DNA of 60,976 bases, from contig JAGVYH010000003.1 in the NCBI GenBank assembly GCA_018303325.1, positions 1 through 60,976 on the forward strand. Reading direction: 5' to 3'. Below are positions 445-56,855 of this stretch, one piece after another; positions within the stretch are counted from its first letter, which is position 1, and each line of letters starts with the position of its first letter. The notes below the pieces were generated by a model. The model did not search any database. It was not told where the DNA came from and saw only the letters and a program-made list of their open reading frames with translations. A program made the translations under genes and the position numbers. This DNA comes from Candidatus Woesearchaeota archaeon. Lineage in GTDB: Archaea > Nanobdellota > Nanobdellia > Woesearchaeales > DSVV01.

Positions 445-825
445 CTATTTCTGCACTTTTTTGTACGAATCAACCATATCACAATCAAGAAAAGGGCGTT
501 TCAGTCCTCTGTACCATTTAAGCTCTTTTAGTTTGTCGCCTACATTTAATTGGCCGCATGAATCAATAACTTTATTTGGTAAATATAAACAACCCCACTT
601 TTTATCTATCTCAATCTCTTTCACGCAAAACTCTATACCTGTATCACCATCTGTACTGCAATCAACATCTACACTTAAAACACTGGTATCTTCGATTGTT
701 TTGCGCTCATAACAGCAATGTTTACCAAGCAGTCCTACACCTGCTATAATTACACCATAGAATACAAGATTAGCAACAACTTCAATTGTTTTATTTGTGT
801 AGTGTTTGAGTTTTTCTGATGACAT
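445..825 (-). CDS. single-pass membrane protein, family-A ectodomain
   Basis: N-terminal hydrophobic helix (VVANLVFYGVIIAGVGLL). C-terminal part aligns by eye with the C-terminus of 9925..10770 and with the disrupted gene 1479..2002 (RKTIED...LNVGDKLKE...CD). Confidence 0.55.
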   Translation of the reverse strand: MSSEKLKHYTNKTIEVVANLVFYGVIIAGVGLLGKHCCYERKTIEDTSVLSVDVDCSTDGDTGIEFCVKEIEIDKKWGCLYLPNKVIDSCGQLNVGDKLKELKWYRGLKRPFLDCDMVDSYKKVQK

Positions 826-846: not shown

Positions 847-1437
847 TTACTTTGCGCTTTCCTTATCTTTTTGCTGGTATTTCTTTCTCCATAAGTGCGG
901 GCTTTCAAATTGCGGTTTTGGAGAAGTTTCAAAGGCATCTTTTATCTGCAAAGCAAATTCAGGAAATCCGTTGTCACCGTAAAAACTGACGGTTTCATAC
1001 GCCAAACCTGCTTTAATAAGTTTCACTGCCAATAATTCTCCGTCGACAAGAACGTGCGCAAGAGTTCTGCCATATTTATCTTTCTTGTCCTCAAGGATTG
1101 TAACTCTCTTTGCCTCGTCTAAAAGCTTATTTGTCAGATTAACTGCTTCTCTGCCATATTCTTGGTCTTGGAAGATGCCATGCTCTGGATGAGCAATTTC
1201 AGGCGTGTCAAGGCCGAGGATTCTGATATATTTATCGCTGCAATAAAGCGAATCTCCGTCGTCATGCTTAATCCTTTCATGAGGACAGATGTAAGATTGT
1301 ATCTGTGAAGGCTTATCTGCATCTCTATCTTTTTCAGCTCTTAAATAATAGTCAGCTAAGGCGCATAGAGCAACAGCACCTACCAAAGAGGATATGACTA
1401 TTGTTGGCTTGATAATTCTGTTTAAAGTTATATTCAT
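847..1437 (-). CDS. membrane-anchored thermonuclease (staphylococcal nuclease / SNase-like)
   Basis: N-terminal TM helix, then SNase-type motifs: DGDSLY..IRILGLDTPE, EYGREA, DKYGRTLAHVLVDG, LIKAGLA. Confidence 0.8.
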   Translation of the reverse strand: MNITLNRIIKPTIVISSLVGAVALCALADYYLRAEKDRDADKPSQIQSYICPHERIKHDDGDSLYCSDKYIRILGLDTPEIAHPEHGIFQDQEYGREAVNLTNKLLDEAKRVTILEDKKDKYGRTLAHVLVDGELLAVKLIKAGLAYETVSFYGDNGFPEFALQIKDAFETSPKPQFESPHLWRKKYQQKDKESAK

Positions 1438-2516: not shown

Positions 2517-3911
2517 TCAACCACTATATCTATACTTAGCCAGGAGAGGAGTTATCTTTCTAAACGCTTTTTGTTGTAATTGATGTACTCTCTGTTTGCT
2601 TATACCTCCTAATTCTTTTGCAACATCTTCTACTATCATTGGCTCTCCGTCCAGCCCCCAATGCAAAGAGATTAGACGTTTTTCTCTTTCACCTAATTGT
2701 TTTAATGCGCGATTAACCGCTTTGCGTAAATCATTTTCTTCTGATATATTTTCTAATATATCTAATGAGCTTTGTTCATTATTAGATATAATCTCCATAA
2801 TAGAACATTTTCTGTTATCTCCTACTGATTTATCCAACTCTAAGATATACATTAAATTTATTCTTGATTCCAAGAATAAAATTTGTTCATCATCAATACC
2901 CATTTTTTTGTATACTTCTTCTTTTTCAGGCTCTCTTCCTAATTCCTTTTTGCATCCTTCTCTTGCTCTTTTATATTCTCTGCATAGTTTATTGAAGCCA
3001 GGCGGAGTTCTTATTAGTCTGCTTTTATTGTCAATTTCTCTGCGGATTTCTCCGTCAATTATTATCCCAGCATAAACACTAAACTTCACGCCTAAACTGC
3101 CATTAAACCGTTCTATAGCTTTCATTAATCCAATATTGCCTTCCTGTATTAAATCTGTAATTTCAAGTTTTCTGGGGTTTGCAAAACCATTGTTTTCATA
3201 TCTTCTGGCAAAGTAAATAACATATCCAAGATATTGCTTGATTATATTTTCCCATGAAGACATATAATTTTTTAATAACACATTTAATTCACCTGCTTTT
3301 TCATCTATCTTGCCTTCTTTACAGCATTCTGTTCTATGATTTTTTTTATAGTTCTCAACAATACGTTCATAATAACTGTTGATAATATGCATTTTCTCAA
3401 GATATCCTGCCATTTCTGCGTATACTCTTTTTGCTCTTTTTTGTTTTTCTTCATCGCTTATTTTATCTTCTGGCTTATTTTGCGCTTCAATTCTTTCATC
3501 TTCTTTTCTTCCAATTTGTTCATCTTCTCTTCTTCTAATTATTTCATCTATTCTTTTGTCAAGTAATTTCATATTACAATAATAATTGGCAATTAATTTG
3601 TATTTTTCATTTTCACTTTTTGTATCTAACCCTGCCAGACTAAAATCTTCGTCAGGATTTGCGATTATTCTTTCAATCTCTCCAAACAATTCTTTTTTGG
3701 CATATCTGCACAAATACTCAAAAAAATTTGTTCTGCTTTGCGCAAGCTGGTGAAATAAATTATTCTCCTCTTTTCGAGAAGGTATTTTTGGAGGACCAAC
3801 TTCAGATAAATAAAGTGAAATAGAGGATAACCTATCTCTCGGCAGCTTGTTTCTATCTTCTTTTGGAGTAATGTTCTCTCTGTATTCTTTTGTGATAGTT
3901 TCGTATACCAT
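2517..3911 (-). CDS. sigma-70 family RNA polymerase sigma factor homolog (RpoD-like, regions 1.2, 2, 3, 4)
   Basis: DLIQEGNIGLMKAIERF..G.KFSVYA (region 2), IRTPPGFNKL...LGREPEKEEV (region 3), LGEREKRLISLHWGL...VEDVAKELGGISKQRVHQLQQKAFRKI (region 4). A long charged insertion sits between regions 1.2 and 2. Confidence 0.85.
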   Translation of the reverse strand: MVYETITKEYRENITPKEDRNKLPRDRLSSISLYLSEVGPPKIPSRKEENNLFHQLAQSRTNFFEYLCRYAKKELFGEIERIIANPDEDFSLAGLDTKSENEKYKLIANYYCNMKLLDKRIDEIIRRREDEQIGRKEDERIEAQNKPEDKISDEEKQKRAKRVYAEMAGYLEKMHIINSYYERIVENYKKNHRTECCKEGKIDEKAGELNVLLKNYMSSWENIIKQYLGYVIYFARRYENNGFANPRKLEITDLIQEGNIGLMKAIERFNGSLGVKFSVYAGIIIDGEIRREIDNKSRLIRTPPGFNKLCREYKRAREGCKKELGREPEKEEVYKKMGIDDEQILFLESRINLMYILELDKSVGDNRKCSIMEIISNNEQSSLDILENISEENDLRKAVNRALKQLGEREKRLISLHWGLDGEPMIVEDVAKELGGISKQRVHQLQQKAFRKITPLLAKYRYSG

Positions 3912-3971: not shown

Positions 3972-5417
3972 TTATTGCATTTGATATCCTGCTTCTTTAT
4001 ATTGCCCAAAAACAGCTCTGTCAAAAAGAGATATTTCCCATCCTTTTGTCTGGAACATACAATCTGTTTCAAATTTAGGTCTTCTCTCTTCAATATTTCT
4101 CATTACTTCAAAAATCTTATCTAAAGGATTATCTTTGATAAATCTTGGTGAAAAGTAAAGCAGAAACGGAAATTGCTCGACGTATCCATTTGAATCGACT
4201 CCTTTAAAATCTAACAAATCATAAATTGAGATTGTTCTAGCCAGAGAATAACTAATAACTGTTGGAAGTGTTTCTATTATCTTATTTGTAGCTTCTGCAT
4301 CATGTCTTGAATCAAGGAATTCATAAATTAAATTAGTTTTAGCCAGAGAACAACCAAGAACAGCTGGATGTATTTCTACTATTTTATTTGTAATTTCTGT
4401 GTCATGTCTTGAGTCGAGAAACTCATAGATAAAAGATGTTCGTTTAAGAGAATAGCGAAGAACCGTTGGACGTATTTCTACTATTCTATCTGTAGCTTTT
4501 TGTTCATGTCTTGAGTCAAGAAATTCATAAATTGAATTAGTTCTAGCCAGAGAATAACTAATAACTGCCGGAAGTGTCTCTACTATTTTATTTGTAGCTT
4601 TTTGTCCATGTCTTGAGTCAAGGAATTTATAAATTGAACTTGTTCTTTTAAAAGAGCATCTAAAAACAGAAGGCTGTGTTTCTACTATCTTATTAGTAGC
4701 TTTTTGTTCATGCCTTGAGTCAAGGAATTTATAAATTGAAGTAGTCCTTAACAGAGAATAACCAAGAACTGTTGGAAGCATTTCTACTATTTTATTAGTC
4801 GCTTTTTGTTCATGCCTTGAATCAAGAAAATTATAAATTGAATTAGTTCTAGCAAGAGAATAACTAAGAACAGTGGGATGTGTTTCTACTATTTTATTAG
4901 TCGCTTTTTGTTCATGCCTTGTGTCAAGAAAATTATAAATTGAAATTGTCCTTGCAAGAGAACAGCGAAAAATAGCAGGATGTGATTCTACTATTTTATT
5001 TGTGGCTTCTGCGTCATGCCTTGAGTCAAGGAATTCATAAATTGAACGTGTCCTAGCCAGAGAATAGCCAAGAACAGTTGGATGTATTTCTACTGTTCTA
5101 TTTGTAGTTTTTTGTCCGTGTCTTGAGTCGAGGAATTTATAAATTGAACGTGTCCTAGCCAGAGAACAGCCAAGAATACTTGGAAATGCTTTTATTATTT
5201 TATATGCAGCTTCTGTGCCATGTCTTGTGTATAAAAAGAAAACTCTTGTGTGGCTCTCTTCTGAAATATCTCTTGAACAAGCAAGAATGAAGTCTAAACT
5301 AAAGCGTGTAGTATCATAGTTAACTTCACTGGCAAACTTAACTAGTGCTGCTTTTTTTCGCGCAGTTAATCCTTCTTTTTCATTAATTTGATATACTATC
5401 TGTTCTAATTCTCTCAT
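3972..5417 (-). CDS. helical repeat protein with ~10 tandem 34-aa repeats, mTERF-like
   Basis: Repeat consensus SLARTxSIYxFLDSRHxxKATNKIVExxPxVLxY. The P-x-[IV]-L-x-[YC]-S-L ... [FI]-L pattern resembles mTERF motifs; a TPR-like helical repeat is the alternative. Confidence 0.6.
   Translation of the reverse strand: MRELEQIVYQINEKEGLTARKKAALVKFASEVNYDTTRFSLDFILACSRDISEESHTRVFFLYTRHGTEAAYKIIKAFPSILGCSLARTRSIYKFLDSRHGQKTTNRTVEIHPTVLGYSLARTRSIYEFLDSRHDAEATNKIVESHPAIFRCSLARTISIYNFLDTRHEQKATNKIVETHPTVLSYSLARTNSIYNFLDSRHEQKATNKIVEMLPTVLGYSLLRTTSIYKFLDSRHEQKATNKIVETQPSVFRCSFKRTSSIYKFLDSRHGQKATNKIVETLPAVISYSLARTNSIYEFLDSRHEQKATDRIVEIRPTVLRYSLKRTSFIYEFLDSRHDTEITNKIVEIHPAVLGCSLAKTNLIYEFLDSRHDAEATNKIIETLPTVISYSLARTISIYDLLDFKGVDSNGYVEQFPFLLYFSPRFIKDNPLDKIFEVMRNIEERRPKFETDCMFQTKGWEISLFDRAVFGQYKEAGYQMQ
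4150..5190 (-). repeat. coding tandem repeat, 102-bp period, about 10 copies
   Basis: Recurring ...catg(t/c)cttgagtc(a/g)aggaa(t/a)t(t/c)ataaattgaa... blocks every 102 nt on the plus strand. Confidence 0.8.
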
Positions 5418-5604: not shown

Positions 5605-5684
5605 TTAAGGATATTTTTATCTCTAAAATCTAATTTTTCCACCACTATATTCACTGATGGTCAAGTGGAAAAATCAGGGTTAAA

Positions 5685-5765
5685 GAAAACCGACCAGAGT
5701 CCGTAGGACGAGAATGCCACCAATCTATTGACTGGTGGTGGTCGGTTTTCTTTTTTCTTTTTATA
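5685..5765. terminator. long compound hairpin followed by T-runs
   Basis: agaaaaccgacc...ggtcggttttct outer stem enclosing ccaccaatctattgactggtgg and gtccgtaggac hairpins, then ttttttcttttt. Lies between two minus-strand genes. Confidence 0.35.
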
Positions 5766-5771
5766 AAAAAT

Positions 5772-6788
5772 TCACATCTTGTCAAATGTTTTCAATGCTG
5801 CTTCAATCAGCTGGCTTTTTGCAGTATCTGAATCTACGTCATAAAATTCGTGTTTTAACTTTCCTTCACTTAATATGTATCTGTCGCTTCCAATAACAAG
5901 GCTTGCAGCATGTTTTCCCATGAGTTTTGCAGTCATAAATAACGAAGCTGCTTCCATCTCGACGTAGCTAGGTCTTGGTTTGTAAGAATAAAACTCTCCG
6001 TTAATCAATTCTTCAATTACTGCTGTCGGCTGAAAATAATAAATAGGCATTGTAAATCCAATCGCTAAGCTGTATATTCTGTGTTCTATGTTGAAAGTTT
6101 CGCTTATTTTTTTTGTAAGTTCCTCTGATGGTCTTGCAATAAGAGTGTTATCATAAGCATTTTGTTCAGGTGCTGATAGGATTAATGCAGCTGCATCTTT
6201 ATAAGATCCGCTTGAGATTATAGGTGTTCCTTCTTTTTGTTTTTCACCAATCAAGCCACAAGTTCCAATATGAATAATATGCTCTACACCTAATGCATAC
6301 AGTTCAGCAGCCTGTGTAGCAACACCGCCAGCACCAGGTAAACCTCTGTTTAGAATAAAATCTTTGCCGAAGTTTTTCCTGACAATATAAATTAAGTTTG
6401 GATCAGTTGAGCCTGTTTCTATTATTTTATATTGTGAAGCATTAAATCCTAATTTTTGTAGATGTTGCTCCACTTTTGCATCATGCAGAATAATCCCGCA
6501 TTTTGGCAGATTATCTAATTCTCCATGTGTGAAAACACTTTCTTTAAGCCAATCAATATATCCTTTTGGGTCTATCTCTCTAGTGCCATTACTTGGAAAA
6601 TAATTTTTCTTCAGGAATCCTGTAAGTTCTGAATCTTTTGGGCAAACATTTTTCTTTGAACCACATCCAACAACAGATAAGACCAGAGTAGATAATCCAG
6701 ATAACCCAGCTACCTGCAATAATCTTCTTCTGTCAAATTTAGTTCTTTTATCTGTTTCATATTCTTTTTCTTTATTCATTATTTTCAC
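5772..6788 (-). CDS. secreted (Tat signal + lipobox) nucleoside phosphorylase, PNP/UDP family
   Basis: FDRRRLLQVAGLSGL...VVGCGS signal. GLPGAGGVATQAAELYALGVEHIIHIGTCG and VEMEAASLF match the PNP_UDP_1 phosphate/nucleoside-binding pattern. Confidence 0.7.
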   Translation of the reverse strand: MKIMNKEKEYETDKRTKFDRRRLLQVAGLSGLSTLVLSVVGCGSKKNVCPKDSELTGFLKKNYFPSNGTREIDPKGYIDWLKESVFTHGELDNLPKCGIILHDAKVEQHLQKLGFNASQYKIIETGSTDPNLIYIVRKNFGKDFILNRGLPGAGGVATQAAELYALGVEHIIHIGTCGLIGEKQKEGTPIISSGSYKDAAALILSAPEQNAYDNTLIARPSEELTKKISETFNIEHRIYSLAIGFTMPIYYFQPTAVIEELINGEFYSYKPRPSYVEMEAASLFMTAKLMGKHAASLVIGSDRYILSEGKLKHEFYDVDSDTAKSQLIEAALKTFDKM

Positions 6789-6797
6789 CGTTTTAAA

Positions 6798-7418
6798 TCA
6801 ATGATTGTAATCTATTTTTGGATAAATCATTTCACCCTCACCAAACATGTCTGGTCCATAAAAAAAACGAAAGCTAACATGTTTTGTTGGCTTTATTACA
6901 ACAGACGGCCCTAAGAAAAAATATGGTTTTTTACCATCATCAATAGAGTTTTTACCATAACCCATAACCCCAACTTTTAAAAAATCAAACACTTGATAAT
7001 AAATAGTTGGGATGGCATAAACTTCATCTTTTGACTCTTCATTCAATCCCAAAAAGTATCTTGTTTGAAGATCAAAACTAAGCCTATCTTCTAAAGCTTT
7101 GAAACCAACATCTAATCTTGCTCCACCCCAACTGCGACCATTTTGGTCAAATTTCCAATAATTGTATAATGTTGCTGGGCCAAAATTTCTTCCAACTAAC
7201 ATATCAACACGCTGACTATTTTTAGTAAAATTATGGTCATAAGGTCTAATTTTCAGAATGTCTTTATCATTAGTAAATGTTGACTCAACTGCTACTTTAT
7301 GCACTTCTTCAGCTTGAGCTGGTTTTGCATGCGCTATATATGATGCTGATAAAAGTGTGGAAAGTGCAGTTAATTTTCTTAATGTTTTTTCAGTTTTTCT
7401 AATTAGGTTATTTTTCAT
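6798..7418 (-). CDS. secreted beta-strand-rich protein (206 aa), function unknown
   Basis: Signal peptide ending AHAKPAQA. Alternating hydrophobic strands (LSFDLQTRYFLGL, AIPTIYYQVF, VSFRFFYG). Adjacent to and co-oriented with the nucleoside phosphorylase. Confidence 0.55.
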   Translation of the reverse strand: MKNNLIRKTEKTLRKLTALSTLLSASYIAHAKPAQAEEVHKVAVESTFTNDKDILKIRPYDHNFTKNSQRVDMLVGRNFGPATLYNYWKFDQNGRSWGGARLDVGFKALEDRLSFDLQTRYFLGLNEESKDEVYAIPTIYYQVFDFLKVGVMGYGKNSIDDGKKPYFFLGPSVVIKPTKHVSFRFFYGPDMFGEGEMIYPKIDYNH

Positions 7419-7733: not shown

Positions 7734-9449
7734 TCATTTTTTGCTTAAGGAAAAATACATACCAATCATCCCTTTTATGCCCCTAATAACATCTTGATGT
7801 AAGAGTATATTCTCATTTTTTCCGTGTGCATTTGAGTTTGGATTGCCGTATCCCATATTTATCACAGGCACACCCAAAGATTCACCAAAGTGTGAAGCGA
7901 TTGGTTCTGTAGCTCCATGGCATGTATAATTAACTGCCTTGACACCGGTTCCTGCTTTTAGTCCGTCTACAACTGCTTTAAACACAGGAGAGGAAGATTC
8001 ACTGTAAAATGGCTGTGCAACTTCTTTGACTTCTGCATAAATACCTATCTCTTGTGGTGTTCTTGCAATAGGCATACCATATTCTCTAGCAAGTTGCTCT
8101 ACTTTTTCTTTTATCGAATTTCCAATTTTTTCTGCGTCTTGGCCGTATGCAATTCTAGACGTAATATACATTGAAGCAGTTGGACAAAGTTTAGTTCCGA
8201 ATTCACCGCCATGTATGACATGAACTTCTAGTGAAGGCATGGCGCAGATTCTTTCATCGATATCCTTATTTGTGTCTCCAAGTTTCTTGAAAGGAAGCAT
8301 TTTTTCTACTTTACCTCTTTTTGATCCCTCTTTTTTGCCATTATTTATCATTTCTCTCAAAGAATCAGGAACAACAATTCCGTCGTAGAATGATGCAACT
8401 GTGGCAATACCATTTATATCTTTAAGGCCTGCAGCAATTTTTGCAATCCATTCTGGCGCATTTGGAAGAACTCCGCCAACACTTCCTGAATGTGTACAGC
8501 TGTCATTCTCTGTATAAAATGTTTTAACTTTAACATCCAATGTAGTTATGCCTCTTAAACTGGTAATGATATCCATGTTTTCATAAGTGCCGTTATCACC
8601 ATCAGCTATAATGACACCTTCTGCTTTAAGCATATCTTTATGTCCTTGTAGAAATTCTCTCATTAAAGGGCTACCCATTTCTTCTCCCATCTCTATAAGA
8701 AATTTCATATTAATTGGCAGGTCTATGCCATAAGCTTTCAAGGTTTTCAGGGCAAAAAGATGCATGAATAATTGGCCAGTATCATCAATTACTCCTCTGC
8801 CATATGCAATCTTATCATTTACTTTTTTGCCGTTTACAGTAATCTCTGTGTCAAAAAACTTTTCAGGGTTAAATGGGTCATTGAGCCATGCCTTGTCACT
8901 TCTGTCTGCTGATTGTACATCTGCATGGTTATAAAAAAGGAATGTTTTTGCGTTTGGATTTGGTGAAGCTATCTCGCAAAAAAAGGCATAATTGCCGTGA
9001 TTAATGCTGTTTATAGTATCAACTTTTCCATCTTTCTCTTTTTTCACAAGATCAAACACCTGAATATTTTCACAGCCATAACTTTTGAAAACCTTAACTA
9101 ATGCATCTCTTTTTTCTTTTCTTTGATTATCCCATCGTTTCATCTTGTTTAAGTCAGGATCATCAGCACTGACAGCTTCATATCTTAAGTTTGGAAAAAC
9201 CTCGTTTACAAACATTGCTTCTGCATTTTGCTCGATATATGATGACATAGTTTCAACAATTGATTCTATTTCTGTGGTATTATTTGTTTTTTTGTCGTCA
9301 GCTTGGGCAGCTTGGCCTGTAAGAGCACAATAACCCATTACTACTGCAGTAGTTAATCCAACACCAATTTTTACAGCACTGTCTAAAAAACTCTGGTTTT
9401 GGCTTATAGTTTTATCATTTCCATTTACTCTCTCATTTTTCTCAACCAT
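7734..9449 (-). CDS. secreted/membrane-anchored M20 family metallopeptidase (dipeptidase-like)
   Basis: YNHADVQ..W..DPF, GRGVIDDTGQ, EMGEEMGS motifs, with an N-terminal hydrophobic segment + AQA. Start moved to the ATG at 9449 (GGAGGAGAG 5 nt upstream) because 9551..9585 is homologous to non-coding sequence upstream of 6798..7418. Confidence 0.8.
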   Translation of the reverse strand: MVEKNERVNGNDKTISQNQSFLDSAVKIGVGLTTAVVMGYCALTGQAAQADDKKTNNTTEIESIVETMSSYIEQNAEAMFVNEVFPNLRYEAVSADDPDLNKMKRWDNQRKEKRDALVKVFKSYGCENIQVFDLVKKEKDGKVDTINSINHGNYAFFCEIASPNPNAKTFLFYNHADVQSADRSDKAWLNDPFNPEKFFDTEITVNGKKVNDKIAYGRGVIDDTGQLFMHLFALKTLKAYGIDLPINMKFLIEMGEEMGSPLMREFLQGHKDMLKAEGVIIADGDNGTYENMDIITSLRGITTLDVKVKTFYTENDSCTHSGSVGGVLPNAPEWIAKIAAGLKDINGIATVASFYDGIVVPDSLREMINNGKKEGSKRGKVEKMLPFKKLGDTNKDIDERICAMPSLEVHVIHGGEFGTKLCPTASMYITSRIAYGQDAEKIGNSIKEKVEQLAREYGMPIARTPQEIGIYAEVKEVAQPFYSESSSPVFKAVVDGLKAGTGVKAVNYTCHGATEPIASHFGESLGVPVINMGYGNPNSNAHGKNENILLHQDVIRGIKGMIGMYFSLSKK

Positions 9450-9550
9450 TTTTCTCTCCTCCATTCTCCCATTCTGTTTGAATGATTTATAGAAATTCCT
9501 GCCGAAGATTTTAGAAATTATTTTGAAACTCTTCGAGGATTTCAAAGAAA

Positions 9551-9645
9551 GAGTACGCAAAAGAGAATGATAAAATCTTGTTCTGATTTTTTTACGAAAA
9601 AATTAAGAAATAATACATTTATCGCTGTTTTGTAAAAATTAGGAT
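9551..9645 (-). promoter_or_regulatory. conserved upstream module M2
   Basis: gagtacgcaaaagagaatgataaaatctt...tttttttacgaaaaaa...gttttgtaaaaatt, homologous to M1. Confidence 0.5.
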
Positions 9646-9924: not shown

Positions 9925-10770
9925 TTATTTCTCATACTTTACCATATAATCACATGGCCCTAAATATGGCTTCCATGTTATTTTATTTAGAACATCACCA
10001 ACATTCAACCAAACACCATGCTCAAACCACCATTTTACATCAGTGCCAGCAATTAAACAGTTATCATGTTTGTCGACGGTAATTTTATACACATTTACAG
10101 TATGGCCTGATTTTGCATTAATCTCCTCTTCTTTATCAATGCTGATAACAGTTGCATGTTCTATTGTTCTCGGCATAAAATAATATTCATAGAACATTCC
10201 TGCACCAAAAGCACTAACTGCAACAAGAGCGCATCTTTTTATCCATCTAACTACTTCCAATTCTCTCCTTCTATCTGTTATATATGCATGCCATTTATAA
10301 TCATTCCTAAGTTTTTTTGAATCTCTCCCAACATCAATTTGCCTATCTATTTTTAACGCTTCTACATAAACATCATCTTTTTCTGCTTTCCTGGTCCTAG
10401 GTATTTCCCTATGATATTTTTTCCTAAACATTTCTTCAAGATGTTTTTTTCTTCGTTCTAATATTAAATCAGCTCTTGCTGCGATAAAATGCTCGTTAAG
10501 AAGATAACTAAATTCATTAAACCTGATATGCGCTCTGTTTATGAACAATAATTCTTTATCATCTTTCAACAGCCATGCCCTATACATCACATTCAGAATA
10601 AAGTATGGATTATTGTCTTTAAAAACACTTACTTCAGTTACCAATCCCTCAAGAGAAACTTCTCTTACTCTTTCTCTTGTTAGTATTTCATCTATATCTT
10701 TCTTAGACTGATAACGAATACCTTCTGATTTATCCTTTACGTTTTTTGACTTTTCCATGTTTAATAACAC
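9925..10770 (-). CDS. membrane protein fusing a family-B N-terminal domain, a TM helix and a family-A C-terminal domain
   Basis: N-half matches 2100..2498; TM is ALVAVSAFGAGMFYEYYF; C-half matches 445..825. Start is either GTG 10770 or ATG 10758. Confidence 0.6.
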   Translation of the reverse strand: MLLNMEKSKNVKDKSEGIRYQSKKDIDEILTRERVREVSLEGLVTEVSVFKDNNPYFILNVMYRAWLLKDDKELLFINRAHIRFNEFSYLLNEHFIAARADLILERRKKHLEEMFRKKYHREIPRTRKAEKDDVYVEALKIDRQIDVGRDSKKLRNDYKWHAYITDRRRELEVVRWIKRCALVAVSAFGAGMFYEYYFMPRTIEHATVISIDKEEEINAKSGHTVNVYKITVDKHDNCLIAGTDVKWWFEHGVWLNVGDVLNKITWKPYLGPCDYMVKYEK

Positions 10771-13376: not shown

Positions 13377-15491
13377 TTAATTTCCCTTCGTCATCTCTTT
13401 CTGCATCTCGCCCATCATCTCCCTCTCAACATTCGGGCTGAATTTGAAGGAGTACCAAAGATATACATCACGTGGCATTTCTCCTATGACGGGTATGTGT
13501 TTCTCTTGAAGTAATTTTGGAAGCTGTTCTTGCGACTCTTTTATCCAGTTTTTGGCAGATTTATAATCACCTTCTTGTTGGATGGTCATAATTTTAAGCG
13601 CAGTTTCATAAAATGCATCATATATTTGTGGGTTATCCAAATCAATCTTGTATTTTCCTTCAGGTGTTTCTACTATTACTCCTGCTTTGTAAAGCTCAGC
13701 AAACTGCAAAATAGAGCCTGTGCCATGTGGATCATCAACTCCATAAGACAATCCTCTTAAATAGCTAGGAATTATTGAAATAAGGGCATTTTTCCATTCT
13801 TCTTCTGAGATTAAGTTCTGCCTAACTGCTTGTCCTAATATTGCCATTCCTAACAAATCTGCTTTTGCCTCTTCTAAAGCATGAGCATATTCCCCTAATT
13901 TACTAATTATATAACTATTACTCGGACCAAGACCATGAGCCATTTCATGTGCTACCACCCAAATAATACTATCTTCACCAATTAAGTCTGCTAATTGTTT
14001 TTGATCCATCACCACCTTAGCCATTGGCAATGAAACCAAATCCATTCTTGCAGTTATATTATTAAGTGCAATCACATTTTTATAGAATTCCGTTCTACCA
14101 AATGGTTCAATGTTTGGAAACTTCTTCGCACCGCCAACATATCCGCCGGAACGGCTATCACCACTATATATTGTATCAGCAAAAACAAGGGGTGGTTGAA
14201 ACTTTGTAAAATCACGGATAGCGTACCCTTCCCCAAGATTTACACTTATTTTATTCTCAGTTGGTTGAATAAGTTGCTGGAGTGTTTGTCCAACTTTAGT
14301 ATAACTTTCGTTTATTATACCTATGTTCATTTCCATCATTCCAATCCTTTCAAAAGCACCATGATATTCTTCATTGTTACCAACAAGCACGTCTAACAAT
14401 GATTTCTGTTTTATCCACAAGAGATCTCCTGATTGATAGGGGGATGGATTTTTCAAATCTAAAAACTCATTAGCTCTAATAAGAAAATAATTGCTAAGAG
14501 AAGTGTCTATTCCTATAATTTTTACTAATTCTTCTAGTTCTTTACTTAATCTTCTTAATTCATCTTTATAATAAGGGCTATTGTTTATGGAATCCCATGT
14601 TAGAGAACCATTGCCACTCCACACAACATTTACAAAATGGCTCATTATAGGATCGTTGGGTGAGCTTTTTATTCTATTAATATCTTCTTGAGTAAACCCT
14701 GAAGGCCATTGCCCTGCATTAGGCACTTTCTTTGGGAAGTCAGGATGTGAACTGCATAAATCATCTTTAACTGTTAAACACCATACGCCACCGCTAATAT
14801 TTAAGTGAAGATAATCTTCTAACTCACCTTTTTTTATTAAGTCTATACGATATTTTAAGTTGTTTGGATCTCTTTGAGCAAGAAATACTTTTTCCACAAA
14901 TGGTGTGACTTTGTAGAGCAAGTTCCATGCTACTTTTTGATATGCTTCTGGAAGAATGCTAAAGTCTATATTATGTTTAGCCCATTGTCGAAATGTCTGA
15001 TCTAAATCACGCAAAGTCTTTCGTAAATGTTGTTTATTTTCTTCAGATGAATTCTTTTTATAAGCTTCTTCTGCAGACTTAACTTTACTTCTAATCTTTT
15101 TTATATAATCTTGGTTGTGCGGTTTTAGAGATGGTGCTAGTTTAACACCTTGCTCTGTTAGAGAGACAGCATTTTCCAACAATTTAGGATCAGAATTAAT
15201 ATCATTCGGAACATTAACCAATTCAGATGTTTCAACTTTCCCATTTTTGTTAACATCTTTCCATAACATATAAACTCCTAAATTATAAGAAGCAGTGTTA
15301 AATTCTTTCTCTTGCTTAGAAAAAAATGATTGCTGTGTTTCATCTTGAATTTCTTGTGCACCTTGTTGATGCTGTTGCGCAATCGCTTCTCCACCAACAA
15401 ACATGCTTGCTCCTGCTAATGTTCCAACTAAAACTTTTTTTATTTTATCTGTTATAGATTTATCTTTTATCATTTTTTTATCTTTCACCAT
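13377..15491 (-). CDS. secreted zinc metalloprotease (HExxH ... EExxAD, M49/DPP III-like arrangement)
   Basis: Signal/TM VLVGTLAGASMFVGGEAIA. VVAHEMAHGLGP followed by LEEAKADLLG. aggtggtggg RBS before the ATG. Confidence 0.65.
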   Translation of the reverse strand: MVKDKKMIKDKSITDKIKKVLVGTLAGASMFVGGEAIAQQHQQGAQEIQDETQQSFFSKQEKEFNTASYNLGVYMLWKDVNKNGKVETSELVNVPNDINSDPKLLENAVSLTEQGVKLAPSLKPHNQDYIKKIRSKVKSAEEAYKKNSSEENKQHLRKTLRDLDQTFRQWAKHNIDFSILPEAYQKVAWNLLYKVTPFVEKVFLAQRDPNNLKYRIDLIKKGELEDYLHLNISGGVWCLTVKDDLCSSHPDFPKKVPNAGQWPSGFTQEDINRIKSSPNDPIMSHFVNVVWSGNGSLTWDSINNSPYYKDELRRLSKELEELVKIIGIDTSLSNYFLIRANEFLDLKNPSPYQSGDLLWIKQKSLLDVLVGNNEEYHGAFERIGMMEMNIGIINESYTKVGQTLQQLIQPTENKISVNLGEGYAIRDFTKFQPPLVFADTIYSGDSRSGGYVGGAKKFPNIEPFGRTEFYKNVIALNNITARMDLVSLPMAKVVMDQKQLADLIGEDSIIWVVAHEMAHGLGPSNSYIISKLGEYAHALEEAKADLLGMAILGQAVRQNLISEEEWKNALISIIPSYLRGLSYGVDDPHGTGSILQFAELYKAGVIVETPEGKYKIDLDNPQIYDAFYETALKIMTIQQEGDYKSAKNWIKESQEQLPKLLQEKHIPVIGEMPRDVYLWYSFKFSPNVEREMMGEMQKEMTKGN

Positions 15492-15544
15492 TTTATCCCA
15501 CCACCTAATTAGTTAGAACTTATTAGGTGAAAGAACTATACACA

Positions 15545-15630
15545 AAGACAAATGATAAAATCTGCGACAGAAATTTTTACGAAAAGAGAAGAATTATTGC
15601 ATTAAAACAATGTTATGGAAAATATTAAAC
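15545..15630 (-). promoter_or_regulatory. conserved upstream module M4
   Basis: aaatgataaaatctgcgacagaaatttttacgaaaag...gttatggaaaatatt, alignable to M1/M2. Confidence 0.4.
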
Positions 15631-15678
15631 TGTTTAAGAAGATAAACAGAAAAATGAGTTTCGACAAAAGTATTTACA

Positions 15679-16893
15679 CTATCTTACACTATCATATTGT
15701 TTAATCAGTGCCCTAATGCTATCAACGAAATCATATACTAACAAGATACTTTCTTCTGGTGTGTTCTTTGTTAGGTCTGGTTTGATTTTTCTTTTCACCA
15801 CAGAATAATCCCATTTTAATAATACAAATTCTGTTTTTCCTGACTCAAATGGGCTGTTCATGAAACTACCACTGTAGTTCTCAGATAAGTATGAAACTAT
15901 TTCTTGTTTGATGGAATAATATAAGTGATTAAACTTGCCCCCCCAATCACCTTCCAAATTATTTCCATACTTATCTACTCCATTTTTCTTCCCGACATTA
16001 AAATCATCTATTTCTATCACTAGCTCACAAGCCCAACTATCTAACAAGGATACTAAGTCATTTCCTTGATAATGTTCATCATCACCAACTATTTTTATTT
16101 TGATTGATCCATGTTTATTTTCATGATTAATTTTGTGAGAAGAAATAAGATACATAATACGAGCGTATAGTTCGTTCACATGATCTTCCGTCATCATAAT
16201 ATCTCCTGCATCAAGTAAGCCTGAAACCCCTGTTAGTTTATATTCAATAGCACTAATCTCTACATATGCAAGTTCATCATTTATAATTACGCCTTTTACA
16301 TATATAATATCATCTAATTTAAAACTCATTAACTCTTTTTTGTTACAATTATTTTCTGAATTGTTCTCATCTTCTCCACAGTCCAATACAAAATAATGTA
16401 ACTCTGAATTCCAGATACCACCAGATAAACCAAATGCATTTAGAACATGTGTGGCTTCTTCAAATATTTGATCGGTGAATCGTTTTTCACAATTTTCGTT
16501 CTGACAACAGTCCATATCATCCATATAGTCAAACTCGCCACAATAGGTTGATACAAATGATTGAAATGAGTTAGGGATTCCATAATACTCAATCCTCGGC
16601 GCAAATCTTTCCAATGTTTCTTCTCTAGAAAGAACTTCTTGTTGTGTTATCGTTGGTTGTGTTTGTGGTGAGATGTATATTATACTGCTGGCTAACGCAG
16701 CAATACCTGCACCAACCAGCGCGCCAATCTTCCAGTAATTTTTATCTTTCTTTCCAGCAAGCTCTTTAATCCTTTCAGGAGAATAAGTTAATCCTCTGAC
16801 TCCGCCATCGCAGGTATTCCACGCATGGTTGCCTCTGACTATTTCTGTGAGTTCTACATCTCTTGGTTCATGTGGATTTTGTTTGTCAGCCAT
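15679..16893 (-). CDS. handle-family paralog 1 (404 aa): conserved N-terminal handle + TM + divergent C-terminal domain
   Basis: VRGNHAWNTCDGGVRGLTYSPERIKELAGKKDKNYWKIGALVGAGIAALA, then a unique acidic Cys-containing domain. Confidence 0.7.
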   Translation of the reverse strand: MADKQNPHEPRDVELTEIVRGNHAWNTCDGGVRGLTYSPERIKELAGKKDKNYWKIGALVGAGIAALASSIIYISPQTQPTITQQEVLSREETLERFAPRIEYYGIPNSFQSFVSTYCGEFDYMDDMDCCQNENCEKRFTDQIFEEATHVLNAFGLSGGIWNSELHYFVLDCGEDENNSENNCNKKELMSFKLDDIIYVKGVIINDELAYVEISAIEYKLTGVSGLLDAGDIMMTEDHVNELYARIMYLISSHKINHENKHGSIKIKIVGDDEHYQGNDLVSLLDSWACELVIEIDDFNVGKKNGVDKYGNNLEGDWGGKFNHLYYSIKQEIVSYLSENYSGSFMNSPFESGKTEFVLLKWDYSVVKRKIKPDLTKNTPEESILLVYDFVDSIRALIKQYDSVR

Positions 16894-17030
16894 TGTGTAA
16901 ATGGAATATAATTATCTGAATCATAAAACTTACCTTGGGATTTTTTATGAAAATGAAGGAATCACGGATTAAATTGTGATTTTAGTGAATGCTTGTTAAT
17001 AATGTCCCTCAAATGTTCTAAACCAATCTA

Positions 17031-17210
17031 TAGCAAAGGCACTAAATTTTCGTAATTAATGATGCCTTTGCTATATATAGTAAGTGACGTAAATTTTTAT
17101 ACAAATCGTGTCACTTACTATATTTGTCGGACATAACACTTGGTATAAATATTTATGTCCGACATTATACGTGGACTTTAACAAAAAAGATACGAATATT
17201 AAAGTCCACC
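17031..17210 (+). repeat. H hairpin-module array, left copy (four hairpins)
   Basis: Four modules: tagcaaaggc/gcctttgcta, tagtaagtgac/gtcacttacta, tgtcggacataa/ttatgtccgaca, gtggacttta/taaagtccac. The reverse complement is near-identical to 23473..23702. Confidence 0.85.
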
Positions 17211-17213
17211 CCT

Positions 17214-18731: not shown

Positions 18732-18818
18732 ATTTTAAACCTAATCTCATTATTATTAATTAAAAATTAGATCACAAAGAATCTCTTTTTTTGTGTACTT
18801 CTTCTTATCAGTTCTTAA

Positions 18819-20432: not shown

Positions 20433-20464
20433 TATTTATGTGCATTATTTAATTTTTATATTAT

Positions 20465-22051: not shown

Positions 22052-22073
22052 TTAATAACCCCTAAATTTGTTA

Positions 22074-42207: not shown

Positions 42208-42777
42208 ATGGATAATGAAAAACTAAACATATTGCAGCTGCTGATAGAAAGCCAAGAAGAAATATTTAGTATTCGACAAATTGCTCTCAAACGAAAAATA
42301 AATTACAAATCAGCTTATCAGGCAGTGCATAAACTCAATAAAGAAGGAATTGTTGATATTACTAAACATGGTAATACTATGATTTGCAGATTTAACAAAA
42401 ACTTTAACAATTCTGTGTTTGTGGTGGAACACAATCGTCTGCAGGAATTATTGAAAAACAAAAACTTTAAAGTGATATATAATCGTTTCAAAGGAATAAA
42501 CCACCAATTTGTTTTATTATTATTTGGCTCTTATGCTAAAAAAACACAAACAAAACACTCTGATATTGACTTGCTTTTGATAGCTAATCAGGGCGAAGAG
42601 ATACAAACACAGATAAATCTTCTGCCTTTGCCGATTCACCTTACACATATAAAATATGCTGATTTTCAAACAATGCTCAAATCAAAAGAGTTTACAGTTG
42701 TGTCTGAAGCGATAAAACATAATATTATCCTTTTTGGTATAGAAGATTATTACAGGTTGATAAGCAATGCTGGTTGA
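42208..42777 (+). CDS. wHTH + minimal nucleotidyltransferase (MNT-type), paralog of 32757..33419
   Basis: LLFGSYAKKTQTKHSDIDLLLIA; N-terminal wHTH. Confidence 0.75.
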   Translation: MDNEKLNILQLLIESQEEIFSIRQIALKRKINYKSAYQAVHKLNKEGIVDITKHGNTMICRFNKNFNNSVFVVEHNRLQELLKNKNFKVIYNRFKGINHQFVLLLFGSYAKKTQTKHSDIDLLLIANQGEEIQTQINLLPLPIHLTHIKYADFQTMLKSKEFTVVSEAIKHNIILFGIEDYYRLISNAG

Positions 42778-49487: not shown

Positions 49488-50045
49488 TAAAACACCCATA
49501 ACATTAAATACATCAATAAAAATAACTAATAACTAATAAAACAAAACTATTAAACCAATCAGAAGAAACCATTTTTCTTTTAAAAAGTTTGTTACTGTTG
49601 TTATTGAGTTGCAGTGTTCTCTCGACGAGAGAATCTTTGTATATTTTTGTCACAAAAAGGTGATAGAATTTATAATTTGTTACTAAATTACATCTTTTTG
49701 AATAATGTTTATACTCTCTTCAAATTTTTTCTTTAATTATTATGTGATAACTTAAGTTTACAACTGATATTTAGAGTTTACGGTTGAAAACCATAATATT
49801 TTAATACATCTTACTATCTTTATAATTTTAATTCAGTTTATAATTTGGATATACTCAAATTCCTTGATTTTCGAACAAACTAATTCCATTTAATATATGT
49901 ACTAGTACTATGACAACTTAATGTTGTAACATATTAATACAGTGTACCTTTTGGGTATTATGCAGTTATTTGTCTGAAAATTAAATTGTCAAGCTACTAG
50001 TAATCATAAATATTGCACATTATGGGACAGAAGGGAGTGATCAAA

Positions 50046-53968: not shown

Positions 53969-54139
53969 TTAAATTAAACCCTTACCTTTTCTATCATCTG
54001 CTTTAACTTCTCGCCTGTATTTCGCATATTTATCCTCAGGAGAGTATTTTGGGGGCTTTGTTTCGATAGTCTTTTCGCCGCAACACTCTTTCTTTAGTGT
54101 ATATTTATTGCATTTCTGGCATTTAAGTATATGCTGCAT
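53969..54139 (-). CDS. nop10: H/ACA RNP protein Nop10
   Basis: MQHILKCQKCNKYTLKKECCGEKTIETKPPKYSPEDKYAKYRR matches the archaeal Nop10 zinc ribbon and KPPK[FY]SPED..KYRR motif. G-rich RBS before ATG 54139. Confidence 0.85.
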   Translation of the reverse strand: MQHILKCQKCNKYTLKKECCGEKTIETKPPKYSPEDKYAKYRREVKADDRKGKGLI

Positions 54140-54231
54140 AAGTAACCCCCCTTCTATAATTATAATAAATATATACATCCATAAATAAGATTAATATTTA
54201 AAGATGTTATTTAAATAGTTTTTCTTATTGA

Positions 54232-54710: not shown

Positions 54711-56855
<2,145 letters not shown>

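What the first reader, a model, noticed from the sequence alone, without database searches (positions are those of the whole stretch)
2517..3911. Full-length bacterial-type sigma-70 homolog in an archaeal context, lacking the region 2.3 tryptophan dyad
The ORF has clear regions 1.2, 2, 3 and 4 of RpoD-type sigma factors. The window otherwise carries archaea-specific genes (Nop10, PAC2, class III signal peptides), and archaeal RNAP uses TBP/TFB rather than sigma. Where bacterial primary sigmas read KFSTYATWWIRQAI (aromatic residues used for -10 melting), this protein reads KFSVYAGIIIDGEI. A canonical promoter-melting role is therefore doubtful. It lies in a same-strand run with a 60-aa gene, the mTERF-like repeat protein and a family-B membrane protein, all within the accessory left block. 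The options are horizontal acquisition with a new function, a viral or mobile-element gene, or mis-binning of the contig.
Basis: partly seen in the sequence, partly recalled or inferred. Interest (0 to 1): 0.68.

Follow-up and report, generated by a model that had tools for sequence, protein, structure and literature searches.

The report
Bacterial-type sigma factor in Woesearchaeota
A small, uncultured DPANN archaeon (Woesearchaeota) really does carry an intact, selection-maintained bacterial-type sigma-70 gene; sigma-70 genes in this group were already noted in 2021, and their function in a cell without bacterial RNA polymerase is still unknown.

Summary
Window 2517..3911 (-) encodes a 464-aa sigma-70 family protein with a region-1.2-like motif, a spacer and regions 2, 3 and 4. 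It reads KFSVYAGIIIDGEI where primary sigmas read KFSTYATWWIRQAI. The contig is archaeal: it carries Nop10 and PAC2, and neighbouring proteins are deposited as Candidatus Woesearchaeota. It is not chimeric, because the same gene order recurs in at least 8 independent assemblies and composition is uniform.

Sigma-70 genes in DPANN, "particularly prevalent in Woesearchaeota", were reported by Castelle et al. 2021, so the phenomenon is known. This gene belongs to a tiny, very divergent clade of four lineages. The RNAP clamp-binding helix 2.2 and a clade-specific N-terminal block are strongly conserved. Region 4.2 and the sigma finger are not.

Missing the tryptophan dyad is not, alone, evidence against promoter melting. 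Region 2.3/2.4 matches functional group-3 sigmas (sigma-F: KFSTYAVPMIIGEIQR).

The gene sits in a variable island of secreted and surface proteins, next to an mTERF-repeat protein and a conserved 60-aa protein. My best guess (confidence 0.4) is a domesticated, lineage-specific regulator that docks on the archaeal RNAP clamp and/or DNA. Function is untested.

The parts
2517..3911 (-). sigma-70 family gene, 464 aa
   Evidence: ORF; Pfam r2/r3/r4; NCBIfam; AF2 plus Foldseek to E. coli sigma70
3738..3830 (-). region-1.2-like motif (aa 28-58: LSSISLYLSEVG...SRKEENNLFHQLAQ); codons 47/48 are the positions of the in-frame stops in the two ~50% relatives
   Evidence: alignment to bacterial RpoD region 1.2; no Pfam hit reported; stops in L010 and L011
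3612..3737 (-). clade-specific conserved N-terminal block (aa 59-100: SR..F.EYLCRYAKKELF.E.ERIIANP.EDFSLAG)
   Evidence: 48% invariant across four lineages; dN/dS ~0.15; matched in only one further protein (P0139) among 1.84e9 representatives
3432..3611 (-). variable charged spacer (aa 101-160) at the position of the sigma non-conserved region, containing 24-nt tandem repeats
   Evidence: 3% invariant; tandem repeat 3485-3572; 8-aa indel and frameshift variants within the 90% cluster
3003..3245 (-). sigma region 2 (aa 223-303). Helix 2.2 DLIQEGNIGLMKA is at 3102..3158. Motif KFSVYAGIIIDGEI is at 3045..3086
   Evidence: Pfam r2; region 2.2 is 68% invariant in the clade and matches the bacterial consensus; E. 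coli numbering; group-3-like 2.3/2.4
2736..3002 (-). sigma region 3 (aa 304-392), including a non-acidic 3.2 'finger'
   Evidence: Pfam r3 at 23.8 bits; finger net charge -1 vs -7 in the two bacterial sigmas aligned
2532..2735 (-). sigma region 4 (aa 393-460), an HTH with a diverged recognition helix (SKQRVHQLQQKA)
   Evidence: Pfam r4; region 4.2 is 6% invariant, and region 4 dN/dS is ~0.75-0.8 vs L010/L011
5422..5604 (-). 60-aa protein (FTDLIRSNFKQVYDAYF) linked to the sigma gene; first gene of the 60aa-mTERF-sigma-129aa run
   Evidence: homologue directly upstream of sigma in L010 and L011, upstream of mTERF in L012, partial copy after sigma in L012
3972..5417 (-). mTERF-repeat protein, 481 aa, about 10 tandem 34-aa (102-nt) repeats
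   Evidence: Pfam mTERF E 3.8e-19; TRF period 102 x 9.9; 85% identical orthologue in L012
2100..2489 (-). 129-aa 'domain A' protein immediately downstream of sigma (27-nt gap to the called start at 2489)
   Evidence: homologue directly downstream of sigma in L011; no family hit
9925..10758 (-). 277-aa domain A - TM - domain B protein (the topology of an anti-sigma factor, but no fold support)
   Evidence: alignment A5; only 3 family members in 5.8e9 proteins; AF2 beta-barrels, Foldseek best E 0.024
445..825 (-). 126-aa TM plus Cys-containing 'domain B' surface protein, of the paralogous family that accompanies sigma in all four loci
   Evidence: blastp between loci; sequences
5682..5753 (.). 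perfect 15-nt inverted repeat (42-nt loop) followed by a T-run on the minus strand, between the PNP gene and the 60-aa gene; possible terminator or operator upstream of the sigma operon
   Evidence: sequence

Best explanation
This is a genuine sigma-70 family gene of bacterial origin that has long resided in a small lineage of Woesearchaeota (DPANN archaea) and is maintained by selection. Most likely it no longer acts as a general bacterial-style initiation factor. Instead it probably works inside the archaeon as an accessory, lineage-specific transcription regulator. Its sigma-2 domain would dock through the invariant helix 2.2 on the RNAP clamp coiled-coil. That site is structurally conserved in all multisubunit RNAPs and is used by sigma and NusG in bacteria and by TFE and Spt5 in archaea. 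Regions 2.3/2.4 (group-3-like), 3 and the fast-evolving region-4 HTH would contact DNA. The target would be a small regulon, plausibly the adjacent variable island of secreted and surface proteins. Shown: identity, archaeal residence, age, selection pattern, genomic association. Inferred: binding to archaeal RNAP and/or DNA, and the regulon.
For: The protein belongs to the sigma-70 family, with a group-1-like order of a 1.2-like motif, spacer and regions 2, 3 and 4. The genome is archaeal and the assembly reproducible. Codon usage and GC3 are host-like, and the clade's own paralogues have diverged to dS ~1.7, so the acquisition is old. Overall dN/dS is 0.33-0.43, which indicates a functional protein. 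Conservation is concentrated on helix 2.2 (68% invariant, matching the bacterial consensus) and on a clade-specific N-terminal block (48% invariant, dN/dS 0.15). Region 4.2 is 6% invariant, and the sigma finger has lost its acidity. Region 2.3/2.4 matches functional group-3 sigmas. The gene is linked in all four loci to the 60-aa protein and to families of small secreted or membrane proteins, and in two loci to rSAM/SPASM maturases with Cys-rich secreted proteins. Castelle et al. 2021 independently report sigma-70 genes in many Woesearchaeota alongside TBP, TFB and TFE. That the clamp coiled-coil tip is a factor-docking site conserved across domains is established knowledge, not tested here.
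Against: There is no direct evidence that any sigma binds an archaeal RNAP. Helix 2.2 has stayed at the bacterial consensus, which could equally mean its partner is still a bacterial beta-prime. Two of four lineages carry an in-frame stop at codons 47/48, and one population variant is frameshifted. Region 4 is nearly unconstrained. No conserved promoter-like motif was found, and canonical sigma70 promoter-like sites are not enriched in the island. No partner protein could be identified. The clade is very rare, with four lineages in 1.84e9 representatives.
Confidence: 0.4

Rival explanations
1. The protein still targets a bacterial RNA polymerase, that of a bacterial host, prey or neighbour of the episymbiotic archaeon. 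It would act as a transferred effector that redirects the partner's transcription or blocks it as a decoy, as phage-encoded sigma factors do.
For: Helix 2.2 (DLIQEGNIGLMKA) matches the bacterial consensus in all four lineages despite 32-55% overall identity. DNA-recognition parts evolve fast, as expected in a conflict. The island is variable, with sigma paralogues swapped between close relatives. Neighbours include a membrane-anchored nuclease, a Tat-signal nucleoside phosphorylase and a peptidase, and the window also carries a YkuD L,D-transpeptidase, a peptidoglycan-acting enzyme.
Against: There is no signal peptide or secretion apparatus next to the gene. To my knowledge all demonstrated DPANN hosts are archaea. 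Helix 2.2 is also part of the sigma-2 fold core, so its conservation is not specific evidence. No transfer mechanism is known.
Confidence: 0.12
2. It is a DNA-binding regulator only. It would use the sigma-4 and sigma-3 helix-turn-helix domains like an ordinary bacterial-type repressor or activator, without touching RNAP.
For: To my knowledge most archaeal transcription regulators are bacterial-type HTH proteins. The region-4 HTH fold is retained.
Against: The HTH region is the least conserved part, and the RNAP-docking helix 2.2 the most conserved. That is the opposite of what a pure DNA binder would show.
Confidence: 0.15
3. It is a decaying relic of an old transfer with no current function.
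For: In-frame stops in L010 and L011. A frameshifted variant and an indel variant in the window's own population. High dN/dS in region 4 and in the N-terminal tail. A very narrow distribution.
Against: Overall dN/dS is 0.33-0.43, and 0.15-0.3 in regions 2 and 3 and the N-terminal block, after divergence with dS near or above 1. The window and L012 copies are full-length and intact, and the same intact sequence is present in all 19 contigs read. The block just after the stops is the most constrained part.
Confidence: 0.12
4. It is cargo of a mobile element, virus or defence system (for example an MzaA-like sigma of the MZA anti-phage system) rather than a host regulator.
For: It lies in a variable island with different gene content in close relatives. 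MzaA is among the top NCBIfam and PADLOC hits. The window carries other defence-type genes elsewhere (AbiEii, PDC-S01-like AAA_14/DUF4143, Schlafen AlbA_2).
Against: MzaA scores (132-155 bits) are far below the 800-bit cutoff and reflect the generic sigma core. No MzaB-E or other PADLOC hit lies in the neighbourhood. No relatives were found in IMG/VR. No integrase, transposase or tRNA is nearby. The flanks are syntenic host genes.
Confidence: 0.08
5. It is an artefact: a mis-binned or chimeric contig, or the genome is actually bacterial.
For: Several neighbours look 'bacterial' (Tat/lipobox signal, signal-peptide beta-rich protein, YkuD).
Against: The same linkage from MetRS through sigma to Lrp, rSAM, Nop10, PAC2 and GyrB appears in >=8 independent assemblies, on contigs up to 125 kb. 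Tetranucleotide correlation of the left 10 kb with the rest is 0.89, in line with every other segment, and codon usage is uniform. Nop10 is, to my knowledge, specific to archaea and eukaryotes. Two different NCBI MAGs are labelled Woesearchaeota.
Confidence: 0.02

Closest known systems
Sigma-70 genes in DPANN archaea (protein family fam00359; Castelle et al. 2021, Front Microbiol, PMC8204110)
   Same: A sigma-70-classified protein encoded in a Woesearchaeota genome. Mis-binning is excluded, no recognisable anti-sigma factor is present, and the function is unknown.
   Different: I could not verify that this protein belongs to that exact family, because the held supplements do not list it. This clade is very small and divergent. 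It has a clade-specific N-terminal block, a group-3-like region 2.3/2.4 and a non-acidic finger, none of which the paper describes.
Bacterial primary and primary-like sigma factors (group 1/2: RpoD/SigA, RpoS)
   Same: The order 1.2-like motif, spacer, regions 2, 3, 4. Helix 2.2 matches the consensus. These give the best sequence and structure matches. The nearest non-clade relatives checked sit in bacterial housekeeping contexts.
   Different: Scores are about one third of the family cutoffs. There is no region 1.1. W433/W434, Y425, R436, Q437, T440, H455 and E458 are replaced. The finger is not acidic. The -35 recognition helix is changed and variable. The host is an archaeon.
Group-3 sigma factors (SigF/SigG/SigB type; PDB 1L0O chain C, 8X6G chain H)
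   Same: Region 2.3/2.4 pattern: V at the Y425 position, no WW, and 'GEI.R' in place of 'QAITR'.
   Different: Family models are not passed (SigBFG 102 vs 234; FliA/WhiG 104 vs 190). The protein has a long N-terminal 1.2-like region plus spacer that, to my knowledge, group 3 lacks. No SpoIIAB, RsbW or FlgM-type partner lies nearby.
Phage-encoded sigma factors (e.g. phrog_351)
   Same: A sigma gene outside a bacterial chromosome, divergent from host-type sigmas.
   Different: There is no viral context and no relatives in IMG/VR. The gene is flanked by syntenic cellular genes.
Plastid transcription (nuclear-encoded sigma factors plus mTERF proteins acting on the bacterial-type PEP polymerase)
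   Same: A sigma-70 homologue and an mTERF-repeat protein occur together, here as adjacent co-oriented genes. The plastid parallel is from my own knowledge.
   Different: This is a resemblance only. No bacterial-type core polymerase is known in this organism. In L012 the sigma and mTERF genes lie 6 kb apart, and L010 and L011 lack the mTERF gene next to sigma.

Membership tests
Sigma-70 superfamily | Region 2 domain (PF04542), including the core-binding helix 2.2 | tested here: met
   PF04542 E 1.4e-13; DLIQEGNIGLMKA matches the consensus
Sigma-70 superfamily | Region 4 HTH domain (PF04545) | tested here: met
   PF04545 E 8.4e-8, 32.1 vs 24.1 bits
Sigma-70 superfamily | Superfamily model TIGR02937 above cutoff | tested here: met
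   86.2 vs 42.9 bits
Sigma-70 superfamily | Binds bacterial core RNAP and directs promoter-specific initiation | not testable with these tools
   Needs biochemistry or multimer modelling
Group 1 primary sigma (RpoD/SigA) | Passes RpoD/SigA equivalog models | tested here: not met
   RpoD_Cterm 127.5 vs 354; PRK05658 104.9 vs 555; Sig70-cyanoRpoD 138 vs 384.5
Group 1 primary sigma (RpoD/SigA) | Region 1.1 and region 1.2 | tested here: inconclusive
   Only 27 low-confidence residues precede the 1.2-like motif, so there is no region 1.1. Region 1.2 is seen by alignment only, with no Pfam hit reported
Group 1 primary sigma (RpoD/SigA) | Region 2.3 aromatic melting residues, including W433/W434 | tested here: not met
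   I283/I284; F427 and Y430 are kept, Y425 is V
Group 3 sigma (SigB/F/G, FliA/WhiG) | Passes subfamily models | tested here: not met
   SigBFG 102 vs 234.35; FliA_WhiG 104 vs 189.6
Group 3 sigma (SigB/F/G, FliA/WhiG) | Region 2.3/2.4 of the 'YAxxxIxGEIxR' type | tested here: met
   Window YAGIIIDGEIRR vs sigma-F YAVPMIIGEIQR
Group 3 sigma (SigB/F/G, FliA/WhiG) | Cognate anti-sigma (SpoIIAB/RsbW kinase, FlgM) encoded nearby | tested here: not met
   No such Pfam or NCBIfam hit among the neighbours
Group 4 (ECF) sigma / anti-sigma pair | Two-domain sigma (regions 2 and 4 only) co-transcribed with a single-pass membrane anti-sigma factor | tested here: not met
   The protein has region 3 and a 220-aa N-terminal part. 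The candidate A-TM-B partner has an OB-like beta-barrel fold, not an anti-sigma domain (Foldseek best E 0.024), and linkage is loose
DPANN sigma-70 family fam00359 (Castelle 2021) | Sigma-70-classified protein encoded on a verified DPANN (Woesearchaeota) contig | tested here: met
DPANN sigma-70 family fam00359 (Castelle 2021) | Clusters in that specific protein family | not testable with these tools
   The family member list is not in the held supplements
MzaA (MZA anti-phage system sigma) | Passes the MzaA model, and MzaB-E are encoded alongside | tested here: not met
   131.7 vs 800 bits; PADLOC 82.5 bits on the sigma core only, and no other Mza hit in the neighbours

The most novel reading that the evidence does not exclude
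A bacterial-type sigma factor has been recruited as a working partner of an archaeal RNA polymerase. It would dock on the clamp coiled-coil in place of, or in competition with, TFE or Spt4/5, and would direct or gate initiation at a private set of promoters. That would be a hybrid initiation mode alongside TBP/TFB. An alternative that is equally unexcluded is that the protein is delivered to a bacterial partner to hijack its RNAP.
Probability: 0.12. Interest if true: 0.9.

Novelty: new member of a known kind. Interest (0 to 1): 0.5.

Why it matters
Sigma factors and the TBP/TFB/TFE set are textbook markers of the bacterial and archaeal ways of starting transcription. A sigma gene kept under selection for a long time in an archaeon asks a concrete question: can sigma domain 2 use the universally conserved clamp coiled-coil of a non-bacterial RNAP? 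The selection pattern found here points to a specific experiment, which is binding of helix 2.2 to the archaeal clamp. The clamp-docking helix and a new N-terminal block are conserved, while the promoter-reading parts are free to change. The loose but recurrent linkage to an mTERF-repeat protein, a 60-aa protein and a variable set of secreted Cys-rich proteins gives candidate partners and targets. The bare phenomenon was published in 2021, so this adds detail and testable hypotheses rather than a discovery.

Tried and rejected
1. Chimera or mis-binning: rejected.
2. Viral origin: the full protein and the clade-specific N-domain found nothing in IMG/VR, and PHROG hits are generic sigma.
3. MZA defence system: only the generic sigma core matches and no partners are present.
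4. More clade members: none turned up. The GTDB species-representative scan found only one distant bacterial hit. The JGI metagenome scan with the N-domain found nothing. A word-based search with the N-terminal half found only P0002. The exhaustive profile search added only P0139.
5. Anti-sigma hypothesis for the domain A / A-TM-B proteins: the family co-occurs with the clade (3 members in 5.8e9 proteins), but L018 carries it with no sigma gene within 6.2 kb. The AF2 model is made of OB-like beta-barrels with no significant PDB match. The hypothesis is unsupported, not disproved.
6. Canonical sigma70 promoter scan of the island: not enriched, 49 found vs 45.1 +/- 5.9 in shuffles. Inspection of upstream regions across loci showed no obvious shared motif.
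7. dN/dS within the window's own 90% cluster: the cluster is too clonal to use.
8. Rfam scan and tRNA scan of the window: nothing found.
9. Identifying a specific bacterial donor: the nearest relatives are diverse bacterial primary sigmas, and most carry no taxonomic label. No tree was built.
10. P0283, the one non-clade relative with a similar WW-less motif: it lies on short contigs with uninformative context.
Full report

Yes. Window 2517..3911 (minus strand) is an ATG-initiated ORF of 464 aa.

- Pfam finds Sigma70_r2 (E 1.4e-13), Sigma70_r4 (8.4e-8) and Sigma70_r3. The r3 hit (4.9e-5, 23.8 bits) is just under its 25.3-bit cutoff.
- The NCBIfam sigma-70 superfamily model passes. RpoD, RpoS and cyanobacterial RpoD models align over aa ~172-459 but reach only about one third of their cutoffs.
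- An AlphaFold2 model built on a 58-sequence alignment is confident (mean pLDDT 82.7). Its best PDB matches are E. coli sigma70 chains from holoenzyme and open complexes, over about 490 columns.
- Region 1.2 is supported only by alignment ('SLYLSEVG..SRKEENNLF' against 'YLxEIGxxxLLxxEEExxLA'). Pfam reported no hit there. There is no region 1.1.
- The motif KFSVYAGIIIDGEI is at aa 276-289. A PDB sequence alignment fixes E. coli numbering (window D253 = D403), so I283/I284 replace W433/W434.
- Among the 269 nearest relatives, 247 have WW and 17 keep at least the second Trp. The four members of this clade, P0283 (YL) and P0249 (WY) lack it.

**2. Is the context archaeal, and is the contig sound?**

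- ORF 53969..54178 is Nop10 (NF009623, E 3.6e-18). The same gene has a precomputed PF04135 hit in another assembly.
- PAC2, GyrB and a tandem Lrp/AsnC regulator are present.
- The MetRS just beyond the left end of the window is NCBI MBS3121975.1, 'Candidatus Woesearchaeota archaeon'. A >=90% relative of the Lrp/AsnC protein (MBI4453944.1) carries the same label.
- The sigma protein is encoded, identically, on 19 contigs from at least 8 independent assemblies. Gene order is the same and contigs reach 125 kb.
- Tetranucleotide usage of the left 10 kb correlates with the rest at r = 0.89, like every other segment. The sigma gene's GC3 and codon usage lie within the range of GyrB, PAC2 and Nop10.
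- Chimerism, mis-binning and a bacterial genome are therefore excluded for practical purposes, and the gene is compositionally host-adapted.

**3. Is it known?**

Castelle et al. 2021 (PMC8204110) report sigma-70 genes (family fam00359) in DPANN. They describe them as 'particularly prevalent in Woesearchaeota', rule out mis-binning, find no anti-sigma factor and leave the mechanism 'unclear'. I found no later functional work. The phenomenon is published; the function is open.

**4. What kind of sigma is it?**

- An exhaustive profile search of 1.84 billion representatives finds only two clusters that match over the N-terminal half. These are the P0002 cluster, which contains the window protein and P0003, and P0139. 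All other hits match regions 2-4 only, at <=205 bits.
- Searches with the N-terminal domain alone find nothing more in the protein collection, JGI metagenomes or IMG/VR. The clade has four known lineages: the window, L010, L011 and L012.
- L012 is another NCBI Woesearchaeota MAG contig (GCA_016205905.1).
- The nearest outsiders whose context I checked are ordinary bacterial primary sigmas. P0144 lies among L32p, NusB, FtsH, RNase III, S16 and TrmD. P0005 lies by cytochrome bd. P0017 is in a dnaG-rpoD arrangement.
- Region 2 is closest to RpoD, SigA and RpoS by sequence.

**5. What has been kept and what has changed?**

- Across the four lineages (32-55% identical overall), helix 2.2 (DLIQEGNIGLMKA) is 68% invariant and matches the bacterial consensus.
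- A clade-specific block at aa 59-100 is 48% invariant, with dN/dS about 0.15.
- Regions 2.3 and 2.4 are intermediate (about 40% invariant).
- Region 4.2 is 6% invariant, and region 4 dN/dS is 0.75-0.8 between the window and L010/L011.
- The 3.2 'finger' has net charge -2 to +1, against -7 in the two bacterial sigmas in the alignment.
- The extended -10 residues H455 and E458, the -12 residues Q437 and T440, and the -35 residues R584, E585 and R588 are replaced or variable. The functional roles of these residues are from established sigma70 literature (my knowledge). The substitutions themselves are read from the alignments.
- Overall dN/dS is 0.33-0.43. The gene is constrained but evolves fast. 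These Nei-Gojobori estimates are rough because dS is near saturation.

**6. The tryptophan dyad argument**

That inference does not hold on its own. PDB 1L0O chain C (sigma-F) reads KFSTYAVPMIIGEIQR, and 8X6G chain H (a sigma in an RNAP complex) reads KFEAFLVPTVIGEIKR.

Both lack WW, have Val at the Y425 position, and have 'GEI.R' where RpoD has 'QAITR'. The window has the same pattern (KFSVYAGIIIDGEIRR). The protein thus combines a group-1-like layout (1.2-like motif plus spacer) with a group-3-like region 2.3/2.4. Group-3 sigmas initiate transcription normally in bacteria (established knowledge). Doubt about a canonical role rests on the lack of a known bacterial core enzyme in archaea, and on the changes in the finger and region 4.

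**7. Genomic setting**

The gene lies in a minus-strand run: 60-aa gene, mTERF-repeat gene (about ten 34-aa tandem repeats), sigma, then a 129-aa gene. Gaps between these genes are 4, 60 and 27 nt. A perfect 15-nt inverted repeat lies upstream of the 60-aa gene.

Comparison of the four loci:

- The 60-aa family (FTDLIRSNF.Q.YD.YF) lies directly upstream of sigma in L010 and L011, and upstream of mTERF in the window and L012. A partial copy follows sigma in L012.
- The small neighbouring proteins are built from two domains. Domain A has no preceding signal. Domain B follows a TM helix and contains cysteines.
- Domain A alone is encoded immediately downstream of sigma in the window and in L011. 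A 277-aa A-TM-B fusion is at window 9925..10758.
- L012 has eight Cys/Pro-rich small secreted proteins after sigma, some with Tat signals, and then an rSAM/SPASM enzyme. L010 has an rSAM/SPASM enzyme (ACGX-type, below cutoff) and a 12-Cys secreted protein before sigma.

Between the window and L012, the flanking orthologues are 82-96% identical with dS 0.22-0.41. The two sigma genes are 32-35% identical (blastp and MAFFT alignments) with dS about 1.7, and occupy different slots. They are therefore old paralogues or alleles shuffled within a variable island, not fast-evolving orthologues.

**8. Partner hunt**

The A-TM-B architecture has the topology of an anti-sigma factor, and the family is as rare as the sigma clade, with 3 proteins in 5.8 billion. 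Against this, L018 carries it with no sigma gene within 6.2 kb. Its AF2 model (pLDDT 77) consists of OB-like beta-barrels with no significant PDB match. The idea is unsupported. PADLOC and PHROGs give only generic sigma hits. Canonical sigma70 promoter-like sites are not enriched in the island.

**9. Most likely mechanism**

The strongest constraint falls on the RNAP clamp-docking helix and on a new N-terminal block. The DNA-reading parts drift or diversify. I therefore favour, at confidence 0.4, a domesticated and lineage-specific regulator. It would still dock on an RNAP clamp coiled-coil, here the archaeal one, which is the conserved TFE/Spt5 site. It would contact DNA through regions 2.3/2.4, 3 and 4, and would probably control the adjacent island of secreted and surface proteins.

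Shown: identity, residence, age, selection pattern and linkage. Inferred: the binding partner and the regulon.

The rivals are action on a bacterial partner's RNAP (0.12), a pure DNA binder (0.15), a decaying relic (0.12), mobile-element or defence cargo (0.08) and an artefact (0.02).

**10. Verdict**

This is a new, divergent member of an already reported kind (sigma-70 in Woesearchaeota). Interest is moderate: the core surprise was published in 2021, but the function remains an open and now more sharply testable question.

Noticed in passing
L010:1886-3139 (stop at 1997-1999) and L011:260-1609 (stop at 374-376); equivalent to window codons 47/48 (nt 3768-3773): Both ~50%-identical relatives of the sigma gene carry a single in-frame stop at adjacent codons inside the region-1.2-like motif: TAA in L010 and TAG in L011, where the window has AAA GAG. 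The frame is otherwise continuous from a conserved MVYATV start. The 52 codons after the stops are the most constrained part of the gene (dN/dS ~0.15). Two independent stops at the same spot suggest readthrough, a split gene, or very recent inactivation. Unexplained.
   Followed up: partly
window 3972-5417 (-): An mTERF-family protein (PF02536, E 3.8e-19) built from about 10 near-identical 34-aa (102-nt) tandem repeats, in an archaeon, adjacent to the sigma gene. It is 85% identical in the L012 relative. As far as I know mTERF is mainly a eukaryotic organellar family.
   Followed up: partly
L012:12175-16776; L010:138-1662: Runs of small Cys/Pro-rich secreted proteins (CxPxC-type repeats, some with twin-arginine signals) lie next to radical-SAM/SPASM enzymes and beside the clade sigma genes. 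This looks like a peptide-maturation cassette. The L010 enzyme is closest to the ACGX-system rSAM model (268 bits, cutoff 400).
   Followed up: partly
window 3432-3611 (-); cluster members P0123/P0124/P0125: The charged spacer of the sigma protein contains 24-nt tandem repeats. It varies in the population: one variant has an 8-aa deletion, and another has a frameshift in an A-rich run that splits the gene into 153-aa and 298-aa ORFs.
   Followed up: partly
window 48462-49499 (-): A YkuD-type L,D-transpeptidase domain protein (PF03734, E 1.7e-15) with a signal peptide. This is a peptidoglycan-acting enzyme family in an archaeon that presumably lacks murein.
   Followed up: no
window 847-1437 (-), 5772-6788 (-), 7734-9560 (-), 6798-7418 (-): The island around sigma encodes a membrane-anchored staphylococcal-type nuclease, a nucleoside phosphorylase with a Tat/lipobox-like signal, an M20 peptidase with an N-terminal anchor, and a 206-aa signal-peptide protein with no family match. 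This looks like an extracellular scavenging set.
   Followed up: no
window 59610-60582 (-), 39860-41131 (+), 31876-32460 (+), 32757-33419 (+), 42208-42777 (+): Defence or toxin-antitoxin-type genes elsewhere in the window: AbiEii with a small HTH partner, an AAA_14/DUF4143 ATPase matching the PADLOC candidate PDC-S01 (181 bits), a Schlafen AlbA_2 protein, and two minimal nucleotidyltransferases.
   Followed up: no
window 13377-23414 (-), 25397-31468 (+), 33851-39457 (+), 45067-48168 (+): Many large ORFs (404-1868 aa) have no Pfam match at all. Between the window and L012, p704 is 68% and p404 is 43% identical, while adjacent genes are >90% identical. Divergence along the contig is very heterogeneous.
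   Followed up: no
window 54711-56828 (-): GyrB has an acidic, low-complexity N-terminal extension of about 70 aa before the conserved ATPase domain.
   Followed up: no
window 5630-5753: Two inverted repeats lie in the 167-nt gap upstream of the 60-aa gene. One is a perfect 15-nt pair with a 42-nt loop, flanked by T-runs. The other is a 13-nt pair at 92% complementarity. They may be a terminator of the PNP gene or an operator of the sigma operon.
   Followed up: no
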